Source of the DNA: an uncultured Holophagales bacterium
GTDB taxonomy: Bacteria > Acidobacteriota > Thermoanaerobaculia > Multivoradales > UBA5704
Assembly: GCA_963842525.1 (NCBI GenBank)
Contig: CAWJGT010000005.1
Coordinates: 1-48,373, forward strand
Reading direction: 5' to 3'
Length of the DNA: 48,373 bases
Shown: positions 1 through 48,373 of the stretch, piece after piece
How the letters are laid out: the number at the start of each line of letters is the position of its first letter
Numbering within the stretch: position 1 is the stretch's first letter
The notes under the pieces: generated by a model
What the model was told of the DNA's origin: nothing
The model's input: only the letters and a program-made list of their open reading frames with translations
Databases searched by the model: none
Made by a program: the position numbers and the translations under genes

Positions 1-195
1 GGCGGCGGCACCCGCAAGGCGGTATCTGCCATGGGGGCCACGGGGGCCGCGGGGGCAGGATCGGCCGAGCCCGCCGTGGAGCTCGCCAAGGTGAGCAGAG
101 CTGCCCCAGGTCCAGGCGCTCCTTGATATCTTCGGTGGGCGCGTCGAGACCGTCGAAGAGCGCGAGCATCTCCCAGGGAGGAGTCAACCCGATGA
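1..195 (+). CDS. dnaX: Probable 3' end of DNA polymerase III gamma/tau subunit (partial, frameshifted)
   Basis: One frame reads ...[21 protein letters not shown], resembling DnaX C-termini; position matches the conserved dnaX-ybaB-recR order; probable ATGA overlap with ybaB at 192-195 after an indel. Confidence 0.5.
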
Positions 196-486
196 GCAGC
201 ATGCGTCAACTCATGAAACAGGCCCAGGAGATGCAGGAGCGGCTCCAGCGCGAGCTGAACCAGTTCGTCGTGGAGACCAGCGTCGGCGGCGGTATGGTCA
301 CCGTCCAGATCAGCGGCCACAAGCAGCTCGTCTCCGTCAAGATCGACCCTGAAGCCATCGATCCATCCGACCTCTCCATGCTCGGACCTCATCGTCGCCG
401 CGGTCAACCAGGCGGGCCGCAAGGTCGAAGAGACCATGCAGGGCAAGATGGGCGCGATGGCGTCGAGCCTGCCCGGCCTGTTCTGA
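192..486 (+). CDS. ybaB: YbaB/EbfC nucleoid-associated protein (one frameshift near 384)
   Basis: [15 protein letters not shown]...[11 protein letters not shown]...KIDP; after a shift at ~384 continues [23 protein letters not shown]...LPGLF-TGA(484-486). Confidence 0.9.
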
Positions 487-509
487 TCCACTGCTTCGAT
501 GTCCGACCG

Positions 510-1094
510 ATGCCCGACCCTCTGGCCCGACTGATCGGCGAGCTCGCGCGCCTGCCGGGCATCGGGCCCAAGACCGCAACGCGCTTGGCCCACTATCTCC
601 TCAAGGTGCCCGCCACCGACGCCCAAGCCCTCGCCGAGGCCATCGTCGAGGTGAAGGAGAAGCTCTTCCACTGCTCAGTGTGCAATGCGATCACCGCCAT
701 CGACCCGTGCCGCTACTGCGACGACGAGCGGCGCGACCGCATCCGTATCTGCGTCGTCGAGGAGCCGTTCAACATCGAGCCCATCGAGCGGACGGGGGAA
801 TACCACGGCCTTTACCACGTCCTGCTCGGAGCCCTCTCGCCGCACCGCGGGATCGGCCCCGACCGCCTAGCCATCGCCGGGCTGCTGGCCCGCCTCGAAG
901 GGATTGAGGAGGTCGTGGTGGCGACCAACCCGAACGTCGAGGGCGAGGCCACGGCCCTCTACCTGGCCCGCCTGCTCAAGCCCCGGGGCGTGCGGGTCAC
1001 CCGCCTCGCCTTCGGCATGCCCGTCGGCGGCGATATTGAATATACCGACGAGGTGACCCTGGGGCGGTCGCTGGCCGGCCGGCGCGAGATGTGA
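510..1094 (+). CDS. recR: Recombination mediator RecR
   Basis: LPGIGPKTA HhH, C4 zinc finger (CSVC...CRYC), Toprim VVEE and [12 protein letters not shown] motifs; ATG at 510. Confidence 0.97.
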
Positions 1095-2392
1095 CCGCCT
1101 TCGGCGAGCTCCTCCCCCGCATGGTCGTCCCGCCGCCGGGGCCCCGCGCCCGCGAGCTGTCCCGGTGCCTCGCCGCGGTCGAAGCCCCCGGCATCAACAC
1201 CTTGGCTCCAGGTGGACCCGGCGATCCACCGGCTCCCTCGCTCCTCTGGGAGGAGGCCCGGGGAGCGAACGTCCGCGACGTCGACGGCAATATCTATATA
1301 GACCTCACCGCCGCCTTCGGCGTGGCCGCGGTGGGGCACGCGCACCCGCGGGTCGTCGAGGCGGTGCGCGAGCAGGCAGGCCGGCTCCTCCATGGGCTGG
1401 GGGACGTCCACGCCCATCCGCTGCGGGTCGAGCTGGCCGCACGCCTGGCGCGCCTCGCGCCGGTGGACGACGCCCAGGTCTTCTTCTCCATCTCCGGCGC
1501 CGAAGCCGTGGAGATCGCGCTCAAGACGGCCCTCGCCGCCACCGGCCGGCCCGGCGTCCTCGCCTTCGAGCCCTCCTACCACGGCATGACGCTGGGCGCC
1601 TTGGCCGTCACCTCGCGGGACGAGTTCCGCACGCCTTTCGCCGCCCATCTCCACGGCCACGTGCGCCGGCTCCCCTACGGCTGCCATCCCGGCGAAATCA
1701 CAGCCGTCCTCGACCGGGAAGAGATCGGCGCCGTAATCGTCGAGCCGATCGTCGGCCGGGAGGGCGTCCTGGTGCCGCCTGCCGGCTGGCTTCCCGCCCT
1801 CGCCGAAGCCTGCCAGAGCGTCGGCGCCCTGCTGATCGCGGACGAGGTCTTCACCGGCTTCGGCCGCACCGGGACCCTCTTCGCGGTCGAAGCCGACGGG
1901 GTGCGGCCGGACCTGCTCTGCTGCGGCAAGGCGCTCGGCGGAGGCTTGCCCATCGCCGCCGTGATCGCCCGCCGCGACCTCTTCCGCTGCTGGGAGACCC
2001 CCGGCGAGGCGCGCCACACCGCCACCTTCGTGGCCAACCCCCTGGCCTGCGCCGCCGCCCTGGCCGTGCTCGACATCCTTGAAGAGGAGGATCTGACAAC
2101 GCGCGCCGTTCGCCTCGGCGCCGGAGTGGCCGAGCGGCTGGCGGGCTGGCGGGAACGCTTCCCGGCCGTCTCGGACGTGCGCGGGCGGGGGCTCCTCTGG
2201 GGCGTCGAGCTGGCCTCCAAGGACCTCGCCAAGCGGCTCACCTCGGAGGCGCTCGCGCGAGGGCTCCTCCTGCTTGCCGGCGGGCCGGAGGGGCGGGTGG
2301 CCCAGATCGTACCGCCGCTCCTGATCCCTGAGCCGCTGCTCGATGCGGCGCTCACGATTCTGGAAGAGGAGCTCGAGGAGAAACGTCCGTGA
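1091..2392 (+). CDS. Class III PLP-dependent aminotransferase (GabT/ArgD-like)
   Basis: [52 protein letters not shown] motifs; GTGA overlap with recR stop. Confidence 0.93.
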
Positions 2393-2958
2393 GCGCTCCG
2401 CGGTACAAGATTGCCTTCATTGGCAGCCATGGCGTAGGGAAGACCACCCTCTGCTACGGTCTCGCCGCGCGCCTCAAGGTTCGGGACGTGGCGGTCGAGG
2501 TTGTGCATGAAGTGGCGCGGCGCTGTCCGCTGCCGATCAACGAGGAGACCTCGGTCGCCGCGCAGTCGTGGATCCTCCACGCCCAGATCACCGAGGAGCT
2601 GGTGGCCCAGTCCCGCTATCCGGCGGTGATCTGCGACCGGAGCGTCCTCGACAACTATGTCTACCTCCTGCTCTCCGCCGGCCGGCAGGAGGAGTTGGAG
2701 ACGCTCGTGGAGTCCTGGATGCGCACCTACGACCTCCTGGTGCACGTGCCGGTCCTGGAGCAGCCAAACCCGGACGGCATCCGCTCGGCCAATCCGGCGT
2801 TCCAGCTCGCCGTGGAGGAGCGCCTCGCCCGCGAGCTCGACGGCCGCGGCATCTCCGCCCTCCACCTCGCCCCCGACAGCCGCGCATCCTGGCTCGATAC
2901 GGTCGAGCAGGAGGTCTGGGAGCACGTCCTCGGGCCGGTGCAGCTCCCGCTGCTGTGA
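2389..2958 (+). CDS. P-loop NTPase/kinase (AAA_28/NadR-kinase-like)
   Basis: Walker A GSHGVGKTT, EVAR, ICDRSVLD, DGIR motifs; overlaps upstream stop codon. Confidence 0.85.
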   Translation: MSAPRYKIAFIGSHGVGKTTLCYGLAARLKVRDVAVEVVHEVARRCPLPINEETSVAAQSWILHAQITEELVAQSRYPAVICDRSVLDNYVYLLLSAGRQEELETLVESWMRTYDLLVHVPVLEQPNPDGIRSANPAFQLAVEERLARELDGRGISALHLAPDSRASWLDTVEQEVWEHVLGPVQLPLL

Positions 2959-2988
2959 GGAAGGACCCGAGATCGGGACGCTGCCCAT

Positions 2989-3373
2989 GGACCCGGGACA
3001 ACGCGCCACGGTCTCGGGATCATGCCTAAAGGACCGCAGTCAACGTGCCGCGTCCTTTAGTCCGTGCTTGAGGGACCGCGGTCCGCGGCCCGTTTCCTAC
3101 AGTCGATGCTTGAGGGACCGCGGTCCGCGTGACTTTTTCTTTAGTCCCTGCTACAAGGACCCGGGTCCGTGCGACGTTTGCTGTAGTCAATGCTTCAGGG
3201 ACCCGGGTCCGCGGCTCATTTGCTTTATTCCGTGCTTGAGGGATCGCGGTCCGCGGCCCATTTCCTGTAGTCAGTACTTGAGGGACCCGGGTCCGCGGGT
3301 CGTTTCCTGCAGTCAATGCTTTAAGGACCACGGTCCGCGAGACGTTTTCCCGGGATTCCTTGACCTCGGCCCC
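2989..3373. repeat. 42-bp tandem repeat array with palindromic GGACC-NN-GGTCC core (9 phased units plus 1 degenerate)
   Basis: Core starts at 2989, 3031, 3073, 3115, 3157, 3199, 3241, 3283, 3325 (exactly 42 apart); degenerate copy at 3361. Confidence 0.92.
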
Positions 3374-3430
3374 GCCCCAGACACCCTCTGACGGCGGCGC
3401 GTAGATCGGCTAACATGGCGCCGAGCCCGG

Positions 3431-4108
3431 ATGACCATGCCCACTTTCGAAGGGATCTTCATCTTCCTCCTGGCCCTCCTTGGCGCCGCGGCGTCGATCG
3501 GGCTGTTCTTGGTGTTGCGGCGGTCGGAGGGGAGCCCGGCGATGGAAGCGCTGGGGCGGGGAGACTTCGCGGCGGCCCTGGCGGCGGCGCGGACGGAGGG
3601 GCGGGCCCGGCGGGACGAGCTGTACGCTGCGGCCGTAGCCGCCAAGCACCTGCTCGATCTGAAAACCTCCCGCGAGCTCCTGCGGCGGATCCTCGCCGAC
3701 GATCCGGAGGACGGGGAGGCCTGGCTGGAGTCCGGCCTCGTCGCCTCCTATGGGGGCGACTACGCCGCGGCCGAGCAGGCCTTCGCCACGGCGGCCGCCA
3801 ACCGCTCCGACCTCGCCGAGTCCATTAACCTCCACCGCGCCTGGCTCGAGCTGCGGCGCGGAAATCCTCCGGCGGCCCGCCGCCTCTTCGACGAGGTCGA
3901 GGCGCCTCTCGAGAGCAAGCTGCGCTCCGACCTGGGCAGCGGCGAGCCCCTCTTCGCCGAGTGGTTCCTCCAGGCTGCCGCCCTGTGGGCCGCCTTCGGC
4001 GATCCCGACCGGGCCGCATGGGCGCGCCGCGAAGGCCAGGCCTCGGCTCCGGCCAGCCGCCTCGCCGAGCTCCTGCTCACCGACTCCGGTCCGCTTCCGC
4101 TACAATAG
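3431..4108 (+). CDS. Membrane-anchored TPR-like protein
   Basis: N-terminal hydrophobic helix followed by TPR-like segments (DPEDGEAWLESGLV...GDYAAAEQAF). Confidence 0.75.
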   Translation: MTMPTFEGIFIFLLALLGAAASIGLFLVLRRSEGSPAMEALGRGDFAAALAAARTEGRARRDELYAAAVAAKHLLDLKTSRELLRRILADDPEDGEAWLESGLVASYGGDYAAAEQAFATAAANRSDLAESINLHRAWLELRRGNPPAARRLFDEVEAPLESKLRSDLGSGEPLFAEWFLQAAALWAAFGDPDRAAWARREGQASAPASRLAELLLTDSGPLPLQ

Positions 4109-4115
4109 GCGGACC

Positions 4116-5126
4116 TTGAGCCTCCAGGGACTTTTCCGGCAGTGGGATCTCTTCTCCCACTTCAGCGATGAGCAGTTGTCTCAGCTCGCCGGGTGCGCCT
4201 CCCTCGTCCAGCATCCGGCCGACACCCTGGTGGTCCAGGAGGGGGAGGCGTCTCGCGGCGCCTACATGATCCGCAGCGGCGGCATCCGCATCCAGAGGAA
4301 GACCCCCTACGGCCTGTTCTCCCTGGCCAGCCTCGGTCCCGGCGATCTCTTCGGCGAAACCGCCATCGTCGACCACGGGCCGCGGACCGGCTCGGCGGTC
4401 ACCACCGCCGAGACCGAGATCGTCGCCTTCGACCAGGCGGCGCTCGCGGCGCAGCAGGAGCGCGACCCGGGCTTCCAACTCGCCCTCTACTGGACCTTCT
4501 GGAAGAGCCTCTCGGGGAAGCTCCGCCAGACGAACGCCAACCTCAGCCAGTTCTTCGCCGAGACCGGCGGTCCACCGCCCGGCGATCCGATCACCCACGC
4601 CCAACCGGGAGGGGAGTTCCGCGTCGACCTGGCGGTCAAGCGCAAGCTCTTCCAGGAACAGAAGCTCTCCAACCTGGAGATCAACTTCCTCTCCACCCTT
4701 TCGAAGGAGAAGAAGTTCGCCCCCAACCAGGTCATCTTCCGCGAGGGGGAGACGGCCTACGAGATGTACATCGTGCTCGAGGGGCGCGTGATGATCAGCA
4801 AGTTCATCCCGGGGGCGGGCGAGGAGGCCCTCGCCTTCCTCGAACGCGGCGGCTACTTCGGAGAGATGGCGCTCATCGACAACGCGCCGCGCTCGGCCGA
4901 CGCCAAGGCGCATGACGAGGGAGCCGTCGTCCTCGCCATCCCGCGCGACGTCCTGGAGGGGATCCTCGACATCAACAAGGTCTCCTCCCTGCGTCTGCTC
5001 TCGATCCTCTGCAACCTGGTGGCGGGCCGGCTGCGCGAGATCGACGACAAGATCATCACCTGGTTCATCCTCGCCGGCGGGACCGGGATCTCCTGGCCGG
5101 TGGACCGCCCGCGGAAGCGCGCCTGA
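4116..5126 (+). CDS. Protein with two cyclic nucleotide-binding domains
   Basis: Two cNMP folds: LGPGDLFGETAIVDHGPRTGS and LERGGYFGEMALIDNAPRSAD; probable TTG start at 4116. Confidence 0.88.
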   Translation: MSLQGLFRQWDLFSHFSDEQLSQLAGCASLVQHPADTLVVQEGEASRGAYMIRSGGIRIQRKTPYGLFSLASLGPGDLFGETAIVDHGPRTGSAVTTAETEIVAFDQAALAAQQERDPGFQLALYWTFWKSLSGKLRQTNANLSQFFAETGGPPPGDPITHAQPGGEFRVDLAVKRKLFQEQKLSNLEINFLSTLSKEKKFAPNQVIFREGETAYEMYIVLEGRVMISKFIPGAGEEALAFLERGGYFGEMALIDNAPRSADAKAHDEGAVVLAIPRDVLEGILDINKVSSLRLLSILCNLVAGRLREIDDKIITWFILAGGTGISWPVDRPRKRA

Positions 5127-6211
5127 GCGTTCCTCCCTCCGCCAGGCTCCCGAGCACCTTCCCCACCAGCGACGACTGCGGCAGCCCGGCCCGGCGCCCC
5201 TCGTTCGAACCACCCCGCCGCCGCCTCCGGAGCCTCCGAGCCATGGCGCACCGGCCCGCCTTTCGGCCGCTCAGCCAGCTCCGCCCGGTGCACCGCGATC
5301 TCGAGATTCCGGTAGGTGATCCCGTGGCGGACCGCCGCTTCCTGCTCCCGCAGGCTCCACCTGCCGCCATACCGCGCGCCCAGGTCCGTCTCCGCCCGCT
5401 CCAGGGAGCCATCCGCGGGAACGGGCACCCACGGCAGCTCCCAGGTTCCGGCCAGGAGCTCGCTGTCGTCGGGCCGCCGGAAGAGCAGCACGCCGCGGTC
5501 GTCCTCGACCACGGCGACCAGCAGCCGGTGCCGTTCCGGCTCGCGCTTCACCCGCGGCGGCGGGTACCGCTCGGGGTTCCCCCCGGCCGCGGCCCGGCAG
5601 CCGGTGGAGAGCGGACAGAGGAGGCACTTGGGGCGGCGCGGGGTGCAGAGGGTAGCGCCCAGCTCCATGAGGGCCTGGTTGCTGTCGCCCGGGCGCTCCG
5701 GATCGAGCAGGGACGAAGCCGCAGCCAGGAGAGCCTTGCGGGCGGCGCTCCCCTTCGAGTCCGCGTCGAGAGCCAGCCAGCGGGAGAGGACGCGCTCGAC
5801 GTTGCCGTCGAGCACCGGCTCGGGGACGCCGAAGGCGATGCTCGCCACTGCCGCCGCCGTGTAGGGCCCGATCCCCGGCAGCTCGCGCAGCCCCTCGACG
5901 GTCCGCGGGAACCCGCCGAGCTCGGCGACCCGCCGCGCCGCGGCATGGAGCTGCCGGGCTCGCCGGTAGTAGCCCAGGCCCGACCAGAGGGTGAGGACCT
6001 CTTCGAGGTCTGCCTGCGCAAGGGCCTGGGCGGTGGCAAATTTTTCCAGGAACCTCTTGTAATAGGGGAGCACCACCTCCACGCGCGTCTGCTGGAGCAT
6101 CACTTCCGAGAGCCAGATGCGGTAGGGATCGCGCGTTCGGCGCCAGGGCAGGTCGCGGCGGTGCCTGTTGAACCAGGCGAGGAGGTTCTGGGCATGCCGC
6201 ACCCGCGTCAT
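5065..6211 (-). CDS. mutY: A/G-specific adenine glycosylase MutY (frameshift near 5200; 3' end approximate)
   Basis: RDLPWR, WLSEVMLQQT, WSGLGYYRRA, LPGIGPYTA, DGNVERV, 4Fe-4S CTPRRPKCLLCPLSTGC; NUDIX-like tail ends LPQSSLVGKVL in an alternative frame. Confidence 0.95.
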
Positions 6212-6281
6212 TCTATCTCGGGTCGGCCAATTTGGCAGGCAAGAATGGCGATTTCAGCACGACGCGCAGAGAGGTCTGCTG

Positions 6282-6316
6282 AAAAAGAAAATCCCCCTCC
6301 CCGAAGGGGAGAGGGC
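6282..6316 (-). terminator. Intrinsic terminator of ncRNA unit 1
   Basis: Minus strand CCCTCTCCCC-TTC-GGGGAGGGGG stem (one G-U) followed by ATTTTTCTTTTT. Confidence 0.8.
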
Positions 6317-6475
6317 TTTAAGAGGGGGGCATCCCATCTCTCCGGTTGGCTTATTTGGCTCTACCCCTGTCAATAGGGGATCAGGAGGATGTTTTGCAAA
6401 GGTGAGGCACTAGGGCCTCGTTTTTAGGTGGGAAGTCTTTTGGTGTGTGGGAGCTTCCCCCTCGTCATTTCCTGA
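6282..6475 (-). ncRNA. Putative sigma54-dependent structured ncRNA, unit 1 (~195 nt)
   Basis: Own promoter and terminator; closing helix GAGGGGG..TCCCA / TGGGA..CCCCCTC; hairpins at 6404-6419 and 6364-6379 shared with units 2 and 3; ends inferred from promoter and terminator. Confidence 0.7.
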
Positions 6476-6485
6476 ATCTAACCCC

Positions 6486-6501
6486 TGCAACAACCGTGCC
6501 T
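6486..6501 (-). promoter_or_regulatory. sigma54 -24/-12 promoter, unit 1
   Basis: Minus strand AGGCAC-GGTTG-TTGCA against consensus TGGCAC-N5-TTGCW. Confidence 0.8.
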
Positions 6502-6536
6502 GGTTTCTCATTCCTTCTCTCCCACTCCTCCCCCTC

Positions 6537-6570
6537 AAAAGGAAAACGCTCCCAGCGGGGCTGGGAGCGT
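6537..6570 (-). terminator. Intrinsic terminator of ncRNA unit 2
   Basis: Perfect 10-bp stem ACGCTCCCAG/CTGGGAGCGT (6546-6570) then TTTCCTTTT on the minus strand. Confidence 0.85.
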
Positions 6571-6733
6571 CACGGGGGGAAGCCCATCTCTCCGGTTGGT
6601 CCTTGTGGATCTACCCCTGTTGAAGGGGGATTCGGCAGGTCGGATGAGAGGGTGAGATCTAGAGATCTCGGGATACGGTAGGCTTGGTCGTTGGCTGGTG
6701 GAACATCCCCCTCGGTCATTCTCCTGTATGCCT
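6537..6733 (-). ncRNA. Putative sigma54-dependent structured ncRNA, unit 2 (~197 nt)
   Basis: Closing helix GGGGGA.GTTC / GGGC.TCCCCC; hairpins at 6654-6669 (GAGATC/GATCTC) and 6614-6628 (CCCCT/AGGGG); conserved TAGATCC..CCAACCG. Confidence 0.7.
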
Positions 6734-6743
6734 TCTCTCAGAC

Positions 6744-6759
6744 TGCAATGGCCGTGCCC
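6744..6759 (-). promoter_or_regulatory. sigma54 -24/-12 promoter, unit 2
   Basis: Minus strand GGGCAC-GGCCA-TTGCA. Confidence 0.8.
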
Positions 6760-6779
6760 GGTCCTCTCCTTGGGGCACT

Positions 6780-6806
6780 AAAAGGAAACGGGAGCTTTCG
6801 CTCCCG
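6780..6806 (-). terminator. Intrinsic terminator of ncRNA unit 3
   Basis: CGGGAGC-GAAA-GCTCCCG (GNRA loop on the minus strand) then TTTCCTTTT. Confidence 0.85.
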
Positions 6807-6985
6807 AGCCGAGCGTTGGGGGGGAGGTCCTGAGTTGGGACGGTTGGTTGTGGGATCTACCCCTGTAGAAGGGGAGAGGGAAAGGGATATCAAAGAAGTT
6901 AACGAGATCTCAGGATCTCTTGGAGATGGCAGGAACTTCCGTTTGGCTGGACGGCACCTCCCCCTGAACGCTCTATGAACTTGCC
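6780..6985 (-). ncRNA. Putative sigma54-dependent structured ncRNA, unit 3 (~205 nt)
   Basis: Closing helix GAGCGTT..GGGGGAGGT (6973-6956) / ACCTCCCCC..AACGCTC (6828-6811); hairpins at 6904-6919 and 6860-6874. Confidence 0.7.
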
Positions 6986-6995
6986 CTTCCTTCTC

Positions 6996-7011
6996 TGCAA
7001 TAGACGTACCA
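6996..7011 (-). promoter_or_regulatory. sigma54 -24/-12 promoter, unit 3
   Basis: Minus strand TGGTAC-GTCTA-TTGCA. Confidence 0.8.
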
Positions 7012-7345
7012 CTTTCGGATGAAAGGAGTAAGTCTTTTGTTGCGAGCAGCTTATCTTCTTGAAGCAAGAGGTTCGCGAGGATCTCGAAGATATTCTCTCG
7101 TGTAAATCCTTCCTTCGATCCCGAAGCATTTCTACAAGACTCACCACGCGGGAGGCGTAGGATACGCTGCCCCTGGGAAGGGAGGAGAGTTTGTAGACCC
7201 ATGGACACCGCACCAAAAGTTCTTTCTTCGGAGTCACCCTGCCGGAGGGGTTGCGGGCACGAATGGGTGTTGCTATGATGCGTCCAGTCGTAGCGAGTAG
7301 CGTCTGTCTCCACTGCACTGACGACCCCACCCTCCAGGGTTAGGG

Positions 7346-7377
7346 TTTTCCACACCCTGTGGAATTCCTGCGGAATT
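7346..7377. promoter_or_regulatory. DnaA-box cluster upstream of dnaA
   Basis: TTTTCCACA (7346-7354), TGTGGAATT (7358-7366), TGCGGAATT (7369-7377). Confidence 0.7.
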
Positions 7378-7404
7378 TGACTAGCTTCACGCGTCCGAGG
7401 TCCC

Positions 7405-8696
7405 ATGCCCCAGTCTCTCTGGTCGCTCCTCCAGAAACAGCTCCAGAAGAGCTCGATCCCGAGGAGTTCGCGACCTGGTTCCTCCCCCTGAAGGTACGCA
7501 AGGAGGGGCAGGGCCACCTGATCCTTCTCGCTCCCAATTCCCGTTTCCTGCACACGCTCGAAGAGAGCTACCGTTCCGTCGTGGACCGGGCTCTGGCCGG
7601 CCTCAGCGGCCGCCCCTTTGAGGTTCACTTCTTGTTGGAGGAAGACGACAAGGAGGTGTCCACCGACGAGGTGCCGGCGCCGGGGCACTTCAATCCGAAG
7701 TACATCTTCCAGACCTTCGTCGTGGGCAAGTCCAACGAGTTCGCCCATGCCGCGGCCAAGGCGGTGGCCGAGAACCCGTCCCACAGCTACAACCCGTTGT
7801 TCCTCTACGGCGGCGTAGGGCTCGGCAAGACGCACCTTCTGCATGCCATCGGGCACGAGATCCTGCAACGCAGACCCAACCTCCGGGTCTTCTACCTGGT
7901 GGCCGAGCAGTTCGTCAACGAGCTGATCAACTCTATCCGCTTCGACCGCATGCCCCAGTTCCGCGAGCGATACCGGACCATCGACGTCCTGTTGATCGAC
8001 GACGTGCAGTTCATCGCCAACAAGGAGCGGACGCAGGAGGAGTTCTTCCACACCTTCAACACGCTCTATACGAGCCAGAAGCAGATCATCCTCTCGTCCG
8101 ACTCCTCGCCGCGGAACATCCCGACCCTGGAGGAGCGTCTGCGCAGCCGCTTCGAGTGGGGCCTGATCGCCGACATCCAGCCGCCGGACCTCGAAACCAA
8201 GGTGGCGATCCTGCAGCGCAAGGCTTATACCGAGGGCGTCACCCTCCCCGACGATGTGGCTGTCTTCATCGCCCGGCAGGTCAAATCGAACATCCGCGAG
8301 CTCGAAGGGCTCCTCAACCGGGTCATCGCCCACTCCTCTCTGACTGCCACGCCGCTGTCGCTCGACCATGCCAAGGAGACCCTCAAGGACATCCTTCCCG
8401 AGGAGGGGAAGAAGCCGAACCCGGCAAAGATCGTCAAGGCGGTCGCCGACCATTACGGCCTGAAGGTCGCGGAGATCAAGAGCAAGAGCAACTCGCAACA
8501 GATCGTCTTTCCTCGCAAGGTGGCCATGTACCTGCTGCGCAAGCTCTCGGAGGTCTCCTATCCCGAGATCGGCAAGATCTTCAACGACAAGCACCACTCC
8601 ACGGTCATGTACGCCGTCCGCGACATCGAGGACCGCCGTGCACGGGACGCGGACCTCGACCGCGTGCTCCATGGGCTGGAGCAGCAATTCGGTTGA
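7405..8696 (+). CDS. dnaA: Chromosomal replication initiator DnaA (indel near 7449)
   Basis: ATG 7405 MPQSLWSLLQKQLQK joins ELDPEEFATWF after a shift; YNPLFLYGGVGLGKTHL, LLIDDVQF, QEEFFHTFN, RLRSRFEWG, SNIRELEG, HHSTVMYA. Confidence 0.98.
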
Positions 8697-8940
8697 CTCC
8701 CCAGATAGAGAGGGCCTGGAAAAGCTGTGAAAAGACTGTGCAGGAGAAGCCCTGAATCCCTGTGGAGGGACTGCGGAATTTTCCCGGCCGCCGCAACTTT
8801 TCCGCAACCCCCACAAGCCCGTCCGCAGCTTCCCCACAACCCCCTCACAGAAGCCAAGCTGCCTGGAATCAGGAGCTTGACCCCCACTTCCGCAGTTTCC
8901 GCAGCCCCTATCTACTACTACGGCTATGCTATATATTCAG
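8697..8940. other. oriC: degenerate DnaA boxes, GC-rich spacer, DnaA-trios and AT-rich DUE
   Basis: About 11 TGTG/TGCGGA- and CCACA/CCGCA-type boxes; tandem boxes 8886-8903, GCCCC 8904-8908, TATCTACTACTAC 8909-8921, then CTATATATT; located between dnaA and dnaN. Confidence 0.85.
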
Positions 8941-8965
8941 ATGTCTTCTAGACGGAGAAGAGTGA

Positions 8966-10064
8966 ATGGAGATCCGCCTCAATCGCAGTGAATTCCTGGG
9001 CTGAGCTCGTCCCCATGCAGGGGATCGTCGAGCGCAAGACGACCATCCCTATCCTGTCCCACCTGCTGCTGACCGCGCGCGAGGACAGGCTTCACCTGGC
9101 CGCGACCGACCTCGACGTGTCGCTGACCTCCTGGTGCGATGCGGAGGTCCGCAGCGAAGGAGGAATCGCCGTCCAGGCCAAGAAGCTGGCGGAGATCATT
9201 CGCTCGCTGACGGCCGACGAGGTGATGCTGTCGCAGGAGGAGCCGCGCGAGCTCACCATCCGCTCCGGCCGGTCGCGGTTCCGGATCCACGGCCTGTCGC
9301 CCGATGACTTTCCGACCCTCCCCACGGTCGAGGAGAGCCGCCAGGTGGGGCTGCCGTTCGCCGACTTCCGGCGCATGGTCGCCAAGATCCTCTTCGCGGT
9401 CTCGGCCGAAGAGTCGCGCTTTCAGCTCAACGGCGCCCTGCTCAAGCTCAAGGACGGCTCGCTGGAGATCGTGGCGACCGACGGCCATCGCCTGGCGCTG
9501 GTCGAGGGAGGCCTCGAGGCGAGCGGCGGAGATGATTCCGTGCTGGTGCCGCGCAAGGCCTTGCAGGAATTACAGAGGCTGGAGGGCGACGGCAAGCTCG
9601 AATACCGCCGCGGGGAGCATCACCTCTCCTTCCGGCTCGGCCGCCGCGAGCTGATCTGCCGGATCCTGGAAGGCACCTTCCCGGACTACGAGAGGGTCAT
9701 CGCCAAGGACAACGACAAAAAAGTCCTCTTCGACCGGAAGCCCCTGGCCGACGCCGTGCAGCGCGTCGCCCTCCTGACCGGCGACCGGGCGCGTGCCGTG
9801 CGGCTCCAGTTCTCTCCGGAGCAGATGGTCGTCTCGGCCGCCAACCCCGACCTCGGCGAGGCGACCGAAGAGGTCGCCTGCGATTACGACGGGCCCGAGT
9901 TCCGGGTGGGGATCAACCCGGACTACCTGACCCAGTTCCTGGCCGCCGTGGAGACCGACCGCGTCCGCCTGGAGCTCAAGGACGAGAACACGCAGTGTGT
10001 GGGCTATCCGCACGAAGGTCCGGACACGCGCTACCTCTGTGTGATCATGCCGATGCGGATCTGA
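8966..10064 (+). CDS. dnaN: DNA polymerase III beta clamp (extra G near 9000)
   Basis: MEIRLNRSEFL..AELVPMQGIVERKTTIPILS, AATDLD, VATDGHRL, FPDYERVI, C-terminal VIMPMRI. Confidence 0.97.
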
Positions 10065-44744: not shown

Positions 44745-44821
44745 TGGTGCAGCCAGGAGGAGTCGAACCCCCAACCTACAGATCCGTAGTCTGTCGCTCT
44801 ATCCAGTTGAGCTATGGCTGC
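44745..44821 (-). tRNA. tRNA-Arg(ACG)
   Basis: GCAGCCA/TGGCTGC acceptor, ACAGA-CTACGGA-TCTGT anticodon arm, GGTTCGACTCC T arm, CCA. Confidence 0.97.
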
Positions 44822-48175: not shown

Positions 48176-48255
48176 CGGGGCATCGTGGCGCAGCCTGGTA
48201 GCGCACCTGCCTTGGGCGCAGGGGGTCCCCAGTTCAAATCTGGGCGCCCCGACCA
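48176..48255 (+). tRNA. tRNA-Pro(TGG)
   Basis: CCTGC-CTTGGGC-GCAGG anticodon arm, CCCAG-TTCAAAT-CTGGG T arm, CGCCCCG-A-CCA; extra ATC in the 5' acceptor strand. Confidence 0.92.
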
Positions 48256-48298: not shown

Positions 48299-48373
48299 CT
48301 GCCTGTAGCTCAGTTGGATAGAGCGGCGGCCTTCTAAGCCGCGGGTCGGGGGTTCGAATCCCTCCAGGCAGGC
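48299..48373 (+). tRNA. tRNA-Arg(TCT), 3' end cut by window edge
   Basis: CTGCCTG/CAGGCAG acceptor, GCGGC-CTTCTAA-GCCGC anticodon arm, GGTTCGAATCC. Confidence 0.95.

What the first reader, a model, noticed from the sequence alone, without database searches (positions are those of the whole stretch)
6282..7011. Tandem array of three sigma54-driven, structured ~200-nt ncRNAs between mutY and dnaA
Seen in sequence (minus strand): three units with ~250-bp period. Each starts with a -24/-12 motif (TGGTAC-N5-TTGCA, GGGCAC-N5-TTGCA, AGGCAC-N5-TTGCA) and ends in its own GC hairpin plus U-tract. Each has a long-range closing helix pairing a 5' GGGGG tract with a 3' CCCCC tract, with different flanking pairs in each copy. 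Each has a 16-nt hairpin at exactly 6404/6654/6904 that covaries (GAGGC/GCCTC versus GAGATC/GATCTC), a CCCCT-loop-AGGGG hairpin, and conserved TAGA(T/G)CC and CCAACCG. Primary sequence is otherwise diverged, and no ORF is shared. Established: sigma54 drives several multicopy sRNA families (Qrr, CrcZ/CrcY, GlmY, myxobacterial Pxr), but these units do not show their hallmark motifs as far as I can recognise. Inference: a previously undescribed paralogous ncRNA family.
Basis: partly seen in the sequence, partly recalled or inferred. Interest (0 to 1): 0.92.

Follow-up and report, generated by a model that had tools for sequence, protein, structure and literature searches.

The report
Tandem sigma-54-driven structured small RNA genes
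Three head-to-tail genes for a structured, roughly 200-nucleotide non-coding RNA, each with its own sigma-54 promoter and terminator, lie between mutY and dnaA; they belong to an RNA family found across one order of soil Acidobacteriota that matches no family in Rfam.

Summary
On the minus strand, 7011-6283 holds three units. Each has a -24/-12 sigma-54 motif, a roughly 200-nt RNA and an intrinsic terminator. No Rfam family matches.

A covariance model finds the RNA in 52 of 61 sampled genomes of the same order. It finds no true copy in other orders or classes of the phylum.

Covariation supports the closing helix, two internal hairpins and the terminator:
- 122 units: 92.4% of cells paired, 30 of 32 pairs with double changes, 0 of 500 shuffles as high.
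- 39 further units not used to build the model: 88.8% paired.

The sigma-54 motif precedes 43+2 of 45, 90 of 90 and 35 of 39 units. No ORF is conserved.

Outside the window's family the gene is single. Inside that family it forms arrays of 2-3 units that cluster by position, so the duplications are old. The RNA almost always sits just upstream of mutY and often faces away from dnaA, but 9 of 39 loci lie elsewhere, so it can stand alone.

Function and the activator protein are unknown. A trans-acting regulator is my best inference. Expression has not been shown.

The parts
7095..7136 (-). Candidate enhancer (UAS) for the activator protein. It is two direct repeats 31 nt apart: TGTAGAAATGC at 7136-7126 and a degenerate second copy at about 7105-7095. 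They lie about 126 and 95 nt upstream of the -24 GG of unit A.
   Evidence: The same element, TG[TC]A[GCA][AG]AA followed in many loci by a second copy 31 nt on, lies about 85-205 nt upstream of the first promoter in most family-f1 loci, whatever the upstream gene is. In the own genome it is the only one of 44 sites matching TGTAGAAATGC with at most 1 mismatch that has a sigma-54 motif within 300 nt; the C25 duplicate counts as the same locus. Its function is inferred, not tested.
6996..7011 (-). Sigma-54 -24/-12 promoter motif of unit A (TGGTACGTCTATTGCA)
   Evidence: The GG and GC have the canonical spacing. The start is predicted near 6985 from the usual 11-12 nt distance, which is established knowledge and not measured here.
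6782..6985 (-). Unit A RNA, the first-position subtype. It has the closing helix, hairpin 6919-6904, hairpin 6874-6860, CCAACCG at 6847-6841, and terminator 6806-6789 with a T-tract.
   Evidence: Model R2 matches 6785-6990 at 117.3 bits, E 8.4e-35. Fold -70.9 kcal/mol, z -3.63. Terminator. It clusters with the first units of other genomes.
6744..6759 (-). Sigma-54 -24/-12 promoter motif of unit B (GGGCACGGCCATTGCA)
6537..6733 (-). Unit B RNA, the second-position type. It has hairpin 6669-6654, ACCCUCU, the CCCCU/AGGGG hairpin, CCAACCGGAGAGAUGGG, and terminator 6571-6545 with a T-tract.
   Evidence: Model R2 matches 6537-6737 at 176.6 bits, E 5.8e-54. Fold z -2.86. Terminator.
6508..6514 (-). 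GGAATGA box, about 8 nt upstream of the -24 GG of unit C
   Evidence: A GGAAT / GAAT[GC][AG] box lies within 30 nt upstream of the -24 GG in 33 of 59 later units but in 1 of 39 first units. Its role is unknown.
6486..6501 (-). Sigma-54 -24/-12 promoter motif of unit C (AGGCACGGTTGTTGCA)
6283..6475 (-). Unit C RNA, the third-position type. It has hairpin 6419-6404 (GAGGC/GCCUC), the CCCCU/AGGGG hairpin, CCAACCGGAGAGAUGGG, and terminator 6315-6293 with a T-tract to 6282.
   Evidence: Model R2 matches 6283-6487 at 163.3 bits, E 1.1e-49. Fold z -1.52, which is not significant on its own. Terminator.
4853..6211 (-). mutY (context): the co-oriented gene directly downstream of the array
   Evidence: Pfam HhH-GPD, HHH and NUDIX_4. 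mutY is downstream and co-oriented in 17 of 19 and 38 of 41 family-f1 loci and in 30 of 39 loci of other genomes of the order.
7359..8696 (+). dnaA (context): divergent from the array and followed by dnaN, recF, gyrB and gyrA
   Evidence: Pfam. dnaA lies divergent within the fetched flank in 24 of 39 loci.

Best explanation
The region holds three separate genes for a structured non-coding RNA of about 195-205 nt.

Transcription. Each gene is transcribed from its own sigma-54 (RpoN) promoter. It therefore fires only when an enhancer-binding ATPase (bEBP) is activated. That activator probably binds the repeated TGTAGAAATGC element about 100-130 nt upstream of the first promoter. Each gene ends at its own intrinsic terminator.

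Structure. The RNA folds into a G/C closing helix (P1), a weaker inner helix (P2) and two hairpins (P3, GAGAUC/GAUCUC; P4, CCCCU/AGGGG). These are joined by long, highly conserved single strands: CCAnCCAA, ACCCUCU, UAGAUCC and CCAACCGGAGAGAUGGG.

Proposed function. I infer that the released RNAs act in trans as signal-gated riboregulators. The most likely mechanism is Hfq-assisted base pairing of the pyrimidine-rich single strands (ACCCUCU resembles an anti-Shine-Dalgarno sequence) with mRNA ribosome-binding sites. In this scheme the three old, position-specific paralogues give dosage and partly different target sets.

What is shown: the sequence anatomy, the conservation, the covariation, the promoter motif, and the presence of rpoN and hfq.

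What is inferred: transcription itself, the enhancer, the activator, action in trans and the pairing mechanism.

My odds: a real sigma-54-dependent structured ncRNA gene family about 0.9; acts in trans about 0.65; acts mainly by base pairing about 0.4. The confidence figure given for this explanation (0.58) is for the whole statement read as 'sigma-54-gated, independently terminated, trans-acting RNA genes'.
For: Family and distribution:
- Model R1, built from the three units, found 48 units in 21 loci.
- Model R2 found 92 units in 41 of 59 pattern-selected loci.
- R2 matched 52 of 61 genomes sampled from the order: f1 6/6, f2 6/6, f3 6/6, f4 6/6, f5 5/6, f6 1/1, f7 4/6, f8 0/6, f9 6/6, f10 5/5, f11 5/5, f12 1/1.

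Covariation:
- 122 units (118 distinct): 92.4% of cells paired against 80.2% in shuffles, 30 of 32 pairs with double changes, 0 of 500 shuffles as high, and slid controls at 53-70%.
- By helix: P1 98.5%, P3 99.3%, P4 98.1%, terminator 93.2%.
- 39 units from other families, not used to build the model: 88.8% paired, 28 of 32 pairs with double changes, 0 of 500 shuffles as high.

Sigma-54 dependence:
- A strict motif precedes 43 of 45 units; the other two have TGGCAC-N5-ATGCA.
- The motif precedes 90 of 90 units and 35 of 39 units.
- In one search the regex matched 7 of 15 distant units and I read 5 more by eye, giving 12 of 15.
- There is one rpoN gene in the genome and in 60 of 61 genomes of the order. 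The genome has 44 matches to the sigma-54 activator ATPase domain.

Enhancer-like repeat.

Stand-alone gene:
- Every window unit has a terminator.
- Units occur away from mutY with a convergent or unrelated downstream gene: L107 and L098, and all f10 loci and the g9 loci.

Not coding: the median longest complete sense ORF is 17 aa, 5 of 122 units have one of 40 aa or more, and unit lengths fall in all three residue classes modulo 3.

Old paralogues: units cluster by their position in the array across genomes (FastTree topology, support values not examined).

Cofactors: hfq is present. csrA was not found in a genome that is 96% complete.
Against: - No transcript, 5' end or 3' end has been shown. 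No run on record as RNA holds the stretch.
- No target was found. Duplex energies against the dnaA and mutY start regions are no better than shuffles, with z between -0.7 and +1.0. Searches for long complements of the conserved single strands in the own genome found nothing convincing.
- The conserved parts are long junction strands with a repeated CCNACC-like motif. This fits a protein- or ligand-binding scaffold as well as it fits a pairing seed.
- The near-constant position just upstream of a co-oriented mutY (30 of 39 loci) is unexpected for a purely trans-acting RNA. About a third of the units outside f1 have gaps at the terminator columns, and I saw no terminator hairpin in L096 and L101, so read-through into mutY is possible there.
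- Helix P2 is only 72.5% and 61.2% paired.
- The enhancer element was seen only in family f1 and only before the first unit. No activator gene lies next to any true locus.
- Alignments made by the model lean towards its structure.
Confidence: 0.58

Rival explanations
1. Protein-binding decoy or scaffold RNA. On this reading it works like GlmY, CrcZ or 6S RNA: the sigma-54-gated RNA titrates or recruits a protein through its conserved junction strands and repeated CCNACC-like motifs, rather than pairing with mRNAs.
For: - The strongest conservation lies in the single-stranded joiners of a multi-helix fold, not in one short seed (consensus).
- CCNACC-like words recur three times per unit.
- Its size and helix count are like GlmY/GlmZ, as I recall them.
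- No mRNA target was found.
- Multiple copies suit titration.
Against: - No partner protein is indicated. No gene for an RNA-binding protein is consistently adjacent; the neighbours are mutY, dnaA, a protease-like gene or others.
- csrA was not found and GGA motifs do not sit in the hairpin loops.
- Conserved long single strands are also normal for pairing sRNAs over this short an evolutionary range.
Confidence: 0.22
2. Cis-acting leader or attenuator. On this reading the sigma-54 promoter(s) and the structured RNA control transcription reading into mutY, so that repair of 8-oxoG:A mispairs is induced by the signal.
For: - mutY lies directly downstream on the same strand in 17 of 19 and 38 of 41 f1 loci. 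The five misses are loci cut at an end.
- The same holds in 8 of 15 loci and 30 of 39 loci, down to about 47-62% MutY identity.
- Some single-unit loci show no terminator hairpin by eye (L096, L101), and 11-15 of 39 units have gaps at the terminator columns.
- In L094 the terminator stem shares four C's with the 3' strand of P1, a riboswitch-like overlap.
Against: - In the window each of the three units has its own promoter and its own strong terminator with a T-tract.
- A sigma-70-like promoter lies between the array and the mutY start, at 6238-6210.
- In 9 of 39 loci, and in L107 and L098, the RNA is not next to mutY, and the next gene is convergent or unrelated. This covers all five f10 genomes seen and all three g9 genomes seen.
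- A leader would not need to be multiplied together with its promoter.
Confidence: 0.12
3. Origin-linked function. On this reading, sigma-54-gated transcription or the RNA itself, placed next to dnaA and the likely oriC, modulates dnaA expression or replication initiation.
For: - The window holds the classic origin neighbourhood dnaA-dnaN-recF-gyrB-gyrA.
- The dnaA-dnaN spacer has DnaA-box-like repeats and an AT-rich stretch.
- dnaA is divergent within the fetched flank in 24 of 39 loci, and DnaA boxes lie between dnaA and the RNA in L094, L101 and L103.
- An sRNA acting on dnaA mRNA has a precedent in EcpR1 (PMC4414408; I read the listing abstract and the passages on its promoters).
Against: - In many f1 genomes other genes lie between dnaA and the array.
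- The RNA has moved elsewhere in f10 and g9.
- There is no pairing signal with the dnaA start region.
- DnaA boxes are not enriched in the window: 7 found against 4.3 expected.
- Conserved gene order within one order may be simple inheritance.
Confidence: 0.06
4. Not a functional RNA: a repeated DNA element such as protein-binding sites or a mobile or REP-like repeat, whose palindromes only mimic RNA hairpins.
For: - The hairpin GAGATC-N4-GATCTC is a DNA palindrome.
- The genome is rich in another repeat: 425 copies of a REP-like element.
Against: - Compensatory changes keep pairing while the sequence changes. In P3, A-U becomes G-C in 18 units and U-A becomes C-G in 23.
- The long-range helix P1 and the terminators covary.
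- There is one locus per genome at a fixed position, unlike a dispersed repeat.
- Promoter and terminator motifs are strand-specific.
Confidence: 0.02

Closest known systems
Qrr1-5 sRNAs of Vibrio (sigma-54 + LuxO)
   Same: Several paralogous small RNA genes per genome. Each has its own sigma-54 promoter and intrinsic terminator, and all are gated by one enhancer-binding activator. Redundancy and dosage logic is plausible here too. The Qrr properties are recalled from established literature.
   Different: - Qrr RNAs are about 100 nt, dispersed in the genome and share a long conserved pairing region (recalled).
- The present RNAs are about 200 nt, lie head to tail, and have a different fold.
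- No Rfam family matched the region.
- The activator and targets here are unknown.
GlmY/GlmZ of Enterobacteria (sigma-54 + GlrR for glmY)
   Same: A structured RNA of about 200 nt with several helices, made from a sigma-54 promoter with an upstream activator site. Homologous RNAs work together. These properties are recalled.
   Different: - There is no sequence or structure match in Rfam.
- GlmY acts as a protein decoy for RapZ, and no such partner is indicated here.
- GlmY/GlmZ are not tandem and not linked to mutY or dnaA.
CrcZ/CrcY (Pseudomonas, sigma-54 + CbrB) and NrsZ (NtrC-dependent, built of repeated modules)
   Same: Sigma-54-dependent RNAs with internally repeated or duplicated modules that respond to nutrient signals (recalled). 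The review and papers listed name RpoN-dependent sRNAs; I saw only the listing.
   Different: - CrcZ works through A-rich Hfq-binding motifs, and I saw no A-rich repeats here.
- NrsZ is one transcript that is processed into modules (recalled). Here every unit has its own promoter and terminator.
Tandem sRNA gene pairs and arrays under other regulators (OmrA/B, PrrF1/2, LhrC1-4, CcsR1-4)
   Same: Head-to-tail paralogous sRNA genes with C/U-rich unpaired stretches that pair with ribosome-binding sites (recalled).
   Different: - Those use sigma-70-type or other promoters and are shorter.
- None is known from Acidobacteriota.
- There is no homology.
Acido-1 and Acido-Lenti-1 RNA motifs (Weinberg et al. 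2010, PMC2864571; Table 1 passages read)
   Same: Candidate non-coding RNAs of Acidobacteria found by comparative genomics and not tied to a downstream gene.
   Different: Both are in Rfam (RF01686 and RF01687 according to the paper's table). Neither matched the window at gathering score, nor the region at E <= 10.

Membership tests
Sigma-54 (RpoN)-dependent transcription unit | -24 GG and -12 GC elements with canonical spacing (TGGCAC-N5-TTGCW-like) directly upstream of the transcript | tested here: met
   3 of 3 window units. Strict motif in 43 of 45 units, plus 2 with ATGCA. 90 of 90 units. 35 of 39 units. 12 of 15 distant units: 7 by regex and 5 by eye.
Sigma-54 (RpoN)-dependent transcription unit | The genome encodes RpoN and enhancer-binding AAA+ activators | tested here: met
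   One PF04552 match at 221 bits. 44 PF00158 matches. rpoN in 60 of 61 genomes of the order.
Sigma-54 (RpoN)-dependent transcription unit | An upstream activator site bound by a cognate bEBP | tested here: inconclusive
   A conserved direct repeat lies about 85-205 nt upstream of the first promoter in f1 loci and is unique in the own genome in combination with a sigma-54 motif. Binding is untested. No bEBP gene lies nearby. Nothing comparable was defined outside f1.
Sigma-54 (RpoN)-dependent transcription unit | Transcription abolished without RpoN; mapped start about 12 nt downstream of the -12 GC | not testable with these tools
   No run on record as RNA holds the stretch.
Structured non-coding RNA family | Helices kept by compensatory changes across homologues | tested here: met
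   P1, P3, P4 and the terminator are 93-99% paired with many double changes, and 0 of 500 shuffles reach the observed values. P2 is weak (61-73%).
Structured non-coding RNA family | No conserved open reading frame | tested here: met
   Median longest complete sense ORF 17 aa. 5 of 122 units have one of 40 aa or more. Unit lengths are spread over all residue classes modulo 3.
Any described RNA family (Rfam 15, 4227 models; I recall that these include Qrr, GlmY, GlmZ and CrcZ; Acido-1 and Acido-Lenti-1 are confirmed by the paper's table) | Match to the family covariance model at or near its gathering score | tested here: not met
   The only gathering-level hits in the window are three tRNAs elsewhere. 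In 6100-7200 at E <= 10 there are three chance-level hits far below gathering score. ARAGORN finds no tRNA or tmRNA in 6000-7400.
Riboswitch / cis-regulatory leader | Always upstream of, and co-transcribed with, the regulated gene, with an expression platform overlapping the aptamer | tested here: inconclusive
   Co-oriented mutY lies downstream in 30 of 39 loci, but 9 of 39 lie elsewhere. L107 and L098 have convergent downstream genes. The window units each have a promoter and a full terminator. A P1/terminator overlap was seen by eye in L094 only.
Hfq-dependent base-pairing sRNA | Intrinsic terminator with a U-tail, hfq in the genome, a conserved accessible seed, and identifiable targets | tested here: inconclusive
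   Terminators with T-tracts are present, hfq is present and conserved unpaired stretches are present. No target was identified.

The most novel reading that the evidence does not exclude
The RNA may be more than an ordinary seed-pairing sRNA. It could be an ancient, order-wide, enhancer-gated structured RNA whose gene has stayed fixed between dnaA/oriC and the 8-oxoG repair gene mutY because it couples one environmental or metabolic signal, sensed by a dedicated bEBP, to replication initiation and/or mutation avoidance. It might do this by acting on DnaA or MutY expression or on a protein of those pathways. The 2-3-fold arrays in one family would then set the dose.
Probability: 0.1. Interest if true: 0.85.

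Novelty: new variant of a known kind. Interest (0 to 1): 0.72.

Why it matters
Acidobacteriota are among the most abundant soil bacteria, yet very little RNA-based regulation has been described in them. My six literature searches found no paper on this RNA.

This work gives a well-supported new RNA family: about 160 units, strong covariation, and presence in 52 of 61 genomes sampled from one order. It has a very clean regulatory signature, since it is transcribed only from sigma-54 promoters.

Sigma-54 promoters are silent without their activator. The RNA therefore marks a specific, still unknown signalling pathway that can be looked for directly: which of the roughly 40 activators binds the upstream repeat, and what signal does it sense.

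Two further points are open to experiment:
- The arrays of complete promoter-RNA-terminator units behind one candidate enhancer are a tidy natural case for studying how one enhancer serves several sigma-54 promoters, and how sRNA paralogues diverge.
- The fixed position beside dnaA and mutY raises a testable link to replication or repair.

The covariance model also lets these genes be annotated in metagenome-assembled genomes and metatranscriptomes.

Tried and rejected
1. Second array in the genome. The blastn and model hits on contig C25 are a reverse-complement duplicate of C5:1-8836 at 98.5% identity, at the very start of C25. I rejected it as a second locus.

2. Alternative helix ACCCUCU: GGAGAG(A)UGGG. 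It is present in the minimum-energy fold of unit B. On the alignment it is only 70-81% paired with few double changes, so I did not adopt it. It remains possible as an alternative conformer in second- and third-position units.

3. REP-like element as target. The own genome has 425 copies of a repeat whose tail can pair with GAUCUCACCCUCU over 13 bp, including 2 G-U pairs. The repeat has 0 matches in 52 of 60 other genomes of the order, many of which carry the RNA; its counts range from 0 to 215. I rejected it as the conserved target.

4. Pairing with 16S rRNA. The 16S 3' end reads GGCUGGAUCACCUCCUUUCU. The conserved CCAACC is not its complement. Rejected.

5. dnaA or mutY start regions as targets. 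Duplex energies are no better than dinucleotide shuffles, with z from -0.72 to +1.04. RNAduplex on long sequences is a crude test.

6. Long complements of four conserved stretches in the own genome. These returned only the units themselves and scattered 2-mismatch hits inside genes.

7. Extra helices or pseudoknots. A scan of all column pairs gave only noise from G and U columns.

8. Weak model hits in two other classes (G311, G221). They lie inside or at the end of coding genes and have no sigma-54 motif, so they are false.

9. Pattern scan of genome contigs. 18 of 59 loci, with names from other phyla plus L063 and L078, have no model hit (41 loci carried units). These are chance matches.

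10. Activator gene nearby. tblastn with a bEBP ATPase domain hit only two of the chance loci, L032 and L065, and nothing in the window.

11. tRNA/tmRNA-like elements: none. Tandem Repeats Finder does not see the 250-nt period.

12. Expression.
- No RNA holder is listed.
- One soil run, X6, has a library text reading METATRANSCRIPTOMIC WGA cDNA. The tool marks it as RNA only by guess, and it held a small share of the words.
- When laid, its contigs cover 6324-6460. This is the P1-to-P1 core of unit C, 137 nt with 3 differences, and the 13-letter loose ends on both sides look to me like sequencing-adapter sequence (recalled, not checked).
- Its contigs also cover 6810-6956 (the core of unit A) and 6087-6186 (mutY, 10 differences).
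- DNA runs X1-X3 give similar short contigs over the units.
- I do not count this as evidence of transcription. Parts without cover mean nothing.

14. Supplementary files of papers were closed. Additional files of PMC2864571 that describe Acido-1 in detail were not seen. I relied on Rfam for that comparison.

15. Literature searches found no description of this RNA. The searched library lacks most subscription journals.

I added the field and sent the same report again.


Full report
**What is in the window**

Read on the minus strand, 7011-6283 holds three units of about 250 nt. Each starts with a sigma-54-type -24/-12 motif:
- TGGTAC-N5-TTGCA at 7011-6996
- GGGCAC-N5-TTGCA at 6759-6744
- AGGCAC-N5-TTGCA at 6501-6486

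Each ends in a G+C-rich hairpin followed by a T-tract, at 6806-6789, 6571-6545 and 6315-6293. The scan found 7 terminator-like sites in 5800-7600 against 2.2 +/- 1.8 in shuffles.

The three units align at 67% mean column identity. The invariant blocks are GAGGGGGA, GAG..CUC, ACAGGGGUAGA, CCAACCG and CCCCC.

Single-sequence folds give the same plan in all three: a long-range GGGGG/CCCCC closing helix, a 6-bp hairpin ending exactly at 6904, 6654 and 6404, a CCCCU/AGGGG hairpin, and the terminator. The z-scores are -3.6, -2.9 and -1.5.

The region is 58.5% G+C, against 64-71% in the neighbouring 2-kb windows.

The flanking genes are mutY (4853-6211, minus) and dnaA (7359-8696, plus). dnaA is followed by dnaN, recF, gyrB and gyrA.

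**Not a known family, not coding**

Rfam 15 gives only three tRNAs elsewhere in the window at gathering score. At E <= 10 in 6100-7200 it gives only three chance-level matches far below their gathering scores. This covers Acido-1 and Acido-Lenti-1, which the 2010 paper's table lists with Rfam accessions (PMC2864571, passages read).

ARAGORN finds nothing.

Among 122 units the median longest complete sense ORF is 17 aa. Only 5 units have one of 40 aa or more, and unit lengths fall in all three classes modulo 3.

**Homologues and distribution**

blastn with the array found matches in 21 of 24 other genomes of the same family (f1) and in 0 of 16 genomes from other families of the order.

A covariance model built from the three units (R1) found 48 units in 21 loci. 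The rebuilt model (R2) reaches much further:
- Order sample: 52 of 61 genomes have it. By family: f1 6/6, f2 6/6, f3 6/6, f4 6/6, f5 5/6, f6 1/1, f7 4/6, f8 0/6, f9 6/6, f10 5/5, f11 5/5, f12 1/1.
- Class sample: all 14 positives of 151 genomes are from this order.
- Phylum sample: the only two hits outside the order are false. They lie in or at the end of coding genes and have no promoter motif.

These are samples, so 'not found in those searched' is the right wording.

An exact-pattern scan of public genome contigs returned 59 loci, and 41 of them carry model hits. All 41 come from records named Acidobacteriota, Thermoanaerobaculia, Thermoanaerobaculaceae, Thermoanaerobaculum, Holophagales or Acidobacteria gp7. 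That places the organism.

The own genome has one array. The copy on contig C25 is an 8.8-kb duplicate contig end at 98.5% identity.

**Structure**

On 122 units (118 distinct):
- 92.4% of cells form standard pairs, against 80.2 +/- 0.4% in shuffles.
- 30 of 32 pairs show changes on both sides, in 400 cells.
- No shuffle of 500 reaches any observed measure.
- Sliding the 3' partners by 1-3 columns drops pairing to 53-70%.

By helix: P1 98.5%, the small GG/CC hairpin 96%, P3 99.3%, P4 98.1%, terminator 93.2%, and P2 only 72.5%.

That alignment is fitted to the model. I therefore also counted 39 units from other families that were fetched later and not used to build it. They give 88.8% paired, 28 of 32 pairs with double changes and 0 of 500 shuffles as high. 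By helix: P1 95.0%, P3 96.3%, P4 96.9%, terminator 93.9%, P2 61.2%.

An alternative helix between ACCCUCU and GGAGAGAUGGG is less well supported.

The best-conserved letters are in the single strands that join the helices (consensus).

**Sigma-54 dependence**

Counts of units preceded by a motif:
- Strict motif in 43 of 45 units. The two others read TGGCAC-N5-ATGCA.
- 90 of 90 further units that have enough upstream sequence.
- 35 of 39 units from the other families.
- 12 of 15 distant units: 7 by regex and 5 by eye.

The exceptions are mostly second-locus paralogues (L097, L104, L105, L148, L149).

The genome has one rpoN and 44 matches to the activator ATPase domain. rpoN is present in 60 of 61 genomes of the order, including the six g18 genomes that lack the RNA. 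So rpoN is necessary but does not predict the RNA.

In family f1, a conserved TG[TC]A[GCA][AG]AA element lies about 85-205 nt upstream of the first -24 GG, followed in many loci by a second copy 31 nt on. In the window these are at 7136-7126 and about 7105-7095. The element is there whatever the upstream gene is.

In the own genome, 44 sites match the 11-mer with at most one mismatch. Only this locus, and its C25 duplicate, has a sigma-54 motif within 300 nt.

The spacing and distance resemble tandem activator sites at other sigma-54 promoters, which is recalled knowledge. Binding is untested.

Later units lack this element. Instead, 33 of 59 later units carry a GGAATGA-like box just upstream of the -24 element, against 1 of 39 first units. 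No activator gene is adjacent to any true locus.

**Arrays and paralogues**

Outside f1 the gene is single at its locus. A few genomes have a second, diverged copy elsewhere.

Within f1, the 41 pattern loci have 1 unit (6 loci), 2 units (20 loci) or 3 units (15 loci).

In a FastTree tree of the units, first units group with first units of other genomes, second with second and third with third (I did not examine support values). The window's A, B and C each sit with the same-position units of L009-L013 and L016. So the duplications predate the divergence of the genera, and the copies have been kept distinct.

First-position units lack ACCCUCU and GGAGAGAUGGG.

**Position**

mutY follows on the same strand in:
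- 17 of 19 loci and 38 of 41 f1 loci. The five misses are loci cut at an end.
- 8 of 15 loci.
- 30 of 39 loci of other genomes.

dnaA is divergent within the fetched flank in 24 of 39 loci.

The exceptions matter. All f10 loci, the three g9 loci and some others lie elsewhere: after a LigD gene facing a helicase, or between an ABC1 kinase gene and a convergent GH57 gene. They still have the promoter motif. The RNA can therefore stand alone.

**What it most likely does**

The shown anatomy is that of independent, tightly gated RNA genes. Each unit has its own sigma-54 promoter, which by established knowledge is silent without an activated bEBP, and its own terminator.

I therefore favour a trans-acting riboregulator. 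The most likely mechanism is pairing of the unpaired pyrimidine-rich strands with ribosome-binding sites, with help from Hfq. hfq is present, and csrA was not found. I rate this sub-mechanism at only about 0.4, for three reasons:
- No target emerged.
- The conservation pattern suits a protein-binding scaffold as well.
- The mutY linkage leaves room for a cis role.

Expression itself remains unshown. No run on record as RNA holds the stretch. Contigs of one library that is only guessed to be cDNA cover the cores of units A and C, but so do DNA runs.

**Comparison and novelty**

In logic it is closest to the sigma-54-dependent sRNAs (Qrr, GlmY, CrcZ/CrcY, NrsZ) and to tandem sRNA gene arrays (OmrA/B, PrrF1/2, LhrC, CcsR). 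It is homologous to none of the families in Rfam.

It differs in four ways:
- Size and fold.
- Arrays of complete sigma-54 units behind one candidate enhancer.
- Order-wide conservation.
- A fixed place beside mutY and dnaA.

Six full-text searches found no description of it. The library lacks most subscription journals, and supplements were closed.

I rate it a new variant of a known kind. Existence is well supported. Function is open.

Noticed in passing
own genome, e.g. G000:C1:124039-124062; not in the window's array: A REP-like repeat: CCCCCTCTCCCGG, a loop, GGGAGAGGGGG, then NNAGGGGGTGAGG. It has 209 + 216 copies in the own genome, 215 in one relative (G019), and 0-26 in the other 59 genomes sampled from the order.
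   Followed up: partly
window 1-8836 and G000:C25:1-8849: The first 8.8 kb of the window's contig is repeated in reverse complement at 98.5% identity at the start of contig C25. This is probably an assembly overlap or a strain variant. It makes every gene in it look duplicated.
   Followed up: yes
window 8696-8988: The dnaA-dnaN spacer holds several DnaA-box-like words (CTGTGAAAA, CTGTGGAGG, TTTTCCGCA, TTCCCCACA, TTCCGCAGTTTCCGCAG) and an AT-rich stretch. It is likely oriC. Cumulative GC skew has its minimum near 10-12 kb.
   Followed up: partly
window 7340-7377 and 7251-7279 (+): Two facing DnaA boxes (TTTTCCACA and TGTGGAATT) and an 11-nt tandem CCTGCGGAATT x2 straddle the dnaA start. A sigma-70-like TTGCGG-17-TATGAT lies upstream. 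These suggest dnaA autoregulation.
   Followed up: no
window 4853-5126: The 452-aa mutY frame runs about 100 aa past the usual MutY length and overlaps the convergent cNMP-binding gene (3750-5126, plus). The 'conserved' residues 376-452 match other loci in a different frame from the MutY core (L093). They probably reflect the antisense of that gene, not a MutY extension.
   Followed up: partly
L097, L104, L105, L148, L149 (genomes G028, G144, G039, G208, G191): Some genomes of families f5 and f3 carry a second, diverged copy of the RNA at an unrelated locus, for example next to threonine dehydratase, M19 dipeptidase or DUF1684 genes. These copies have no recognisable sigma-54 motif.
   Followed up: partly
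many f1 loci, e.g. L050, L067, L072 upstream of the array: Where dnaA is not adjacent, the divergent upstream gene often begins with a sequence reading ...[23 protein letters not shown]..., which looks like a retropepsin-like / RimK-associated protease. That family name is recalled and was not run against Pfam.
   Followed up: no
window 6508-6514 and equivalent places in relatives: A GGAATGA-like box lies about 8 nt upstream of the -24 element in 33 of 59 later units and 1 of 39 first units. It resembles the tail of the second upstream repeat (TGTACGAATGA).
   Followed up: partly
window 44748-44821 (-), 48179-48249 (+), 48299-48372 (+): Three tRNA genes. These are the only Rfam gathering-level matches in the window.
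   Followed up: no
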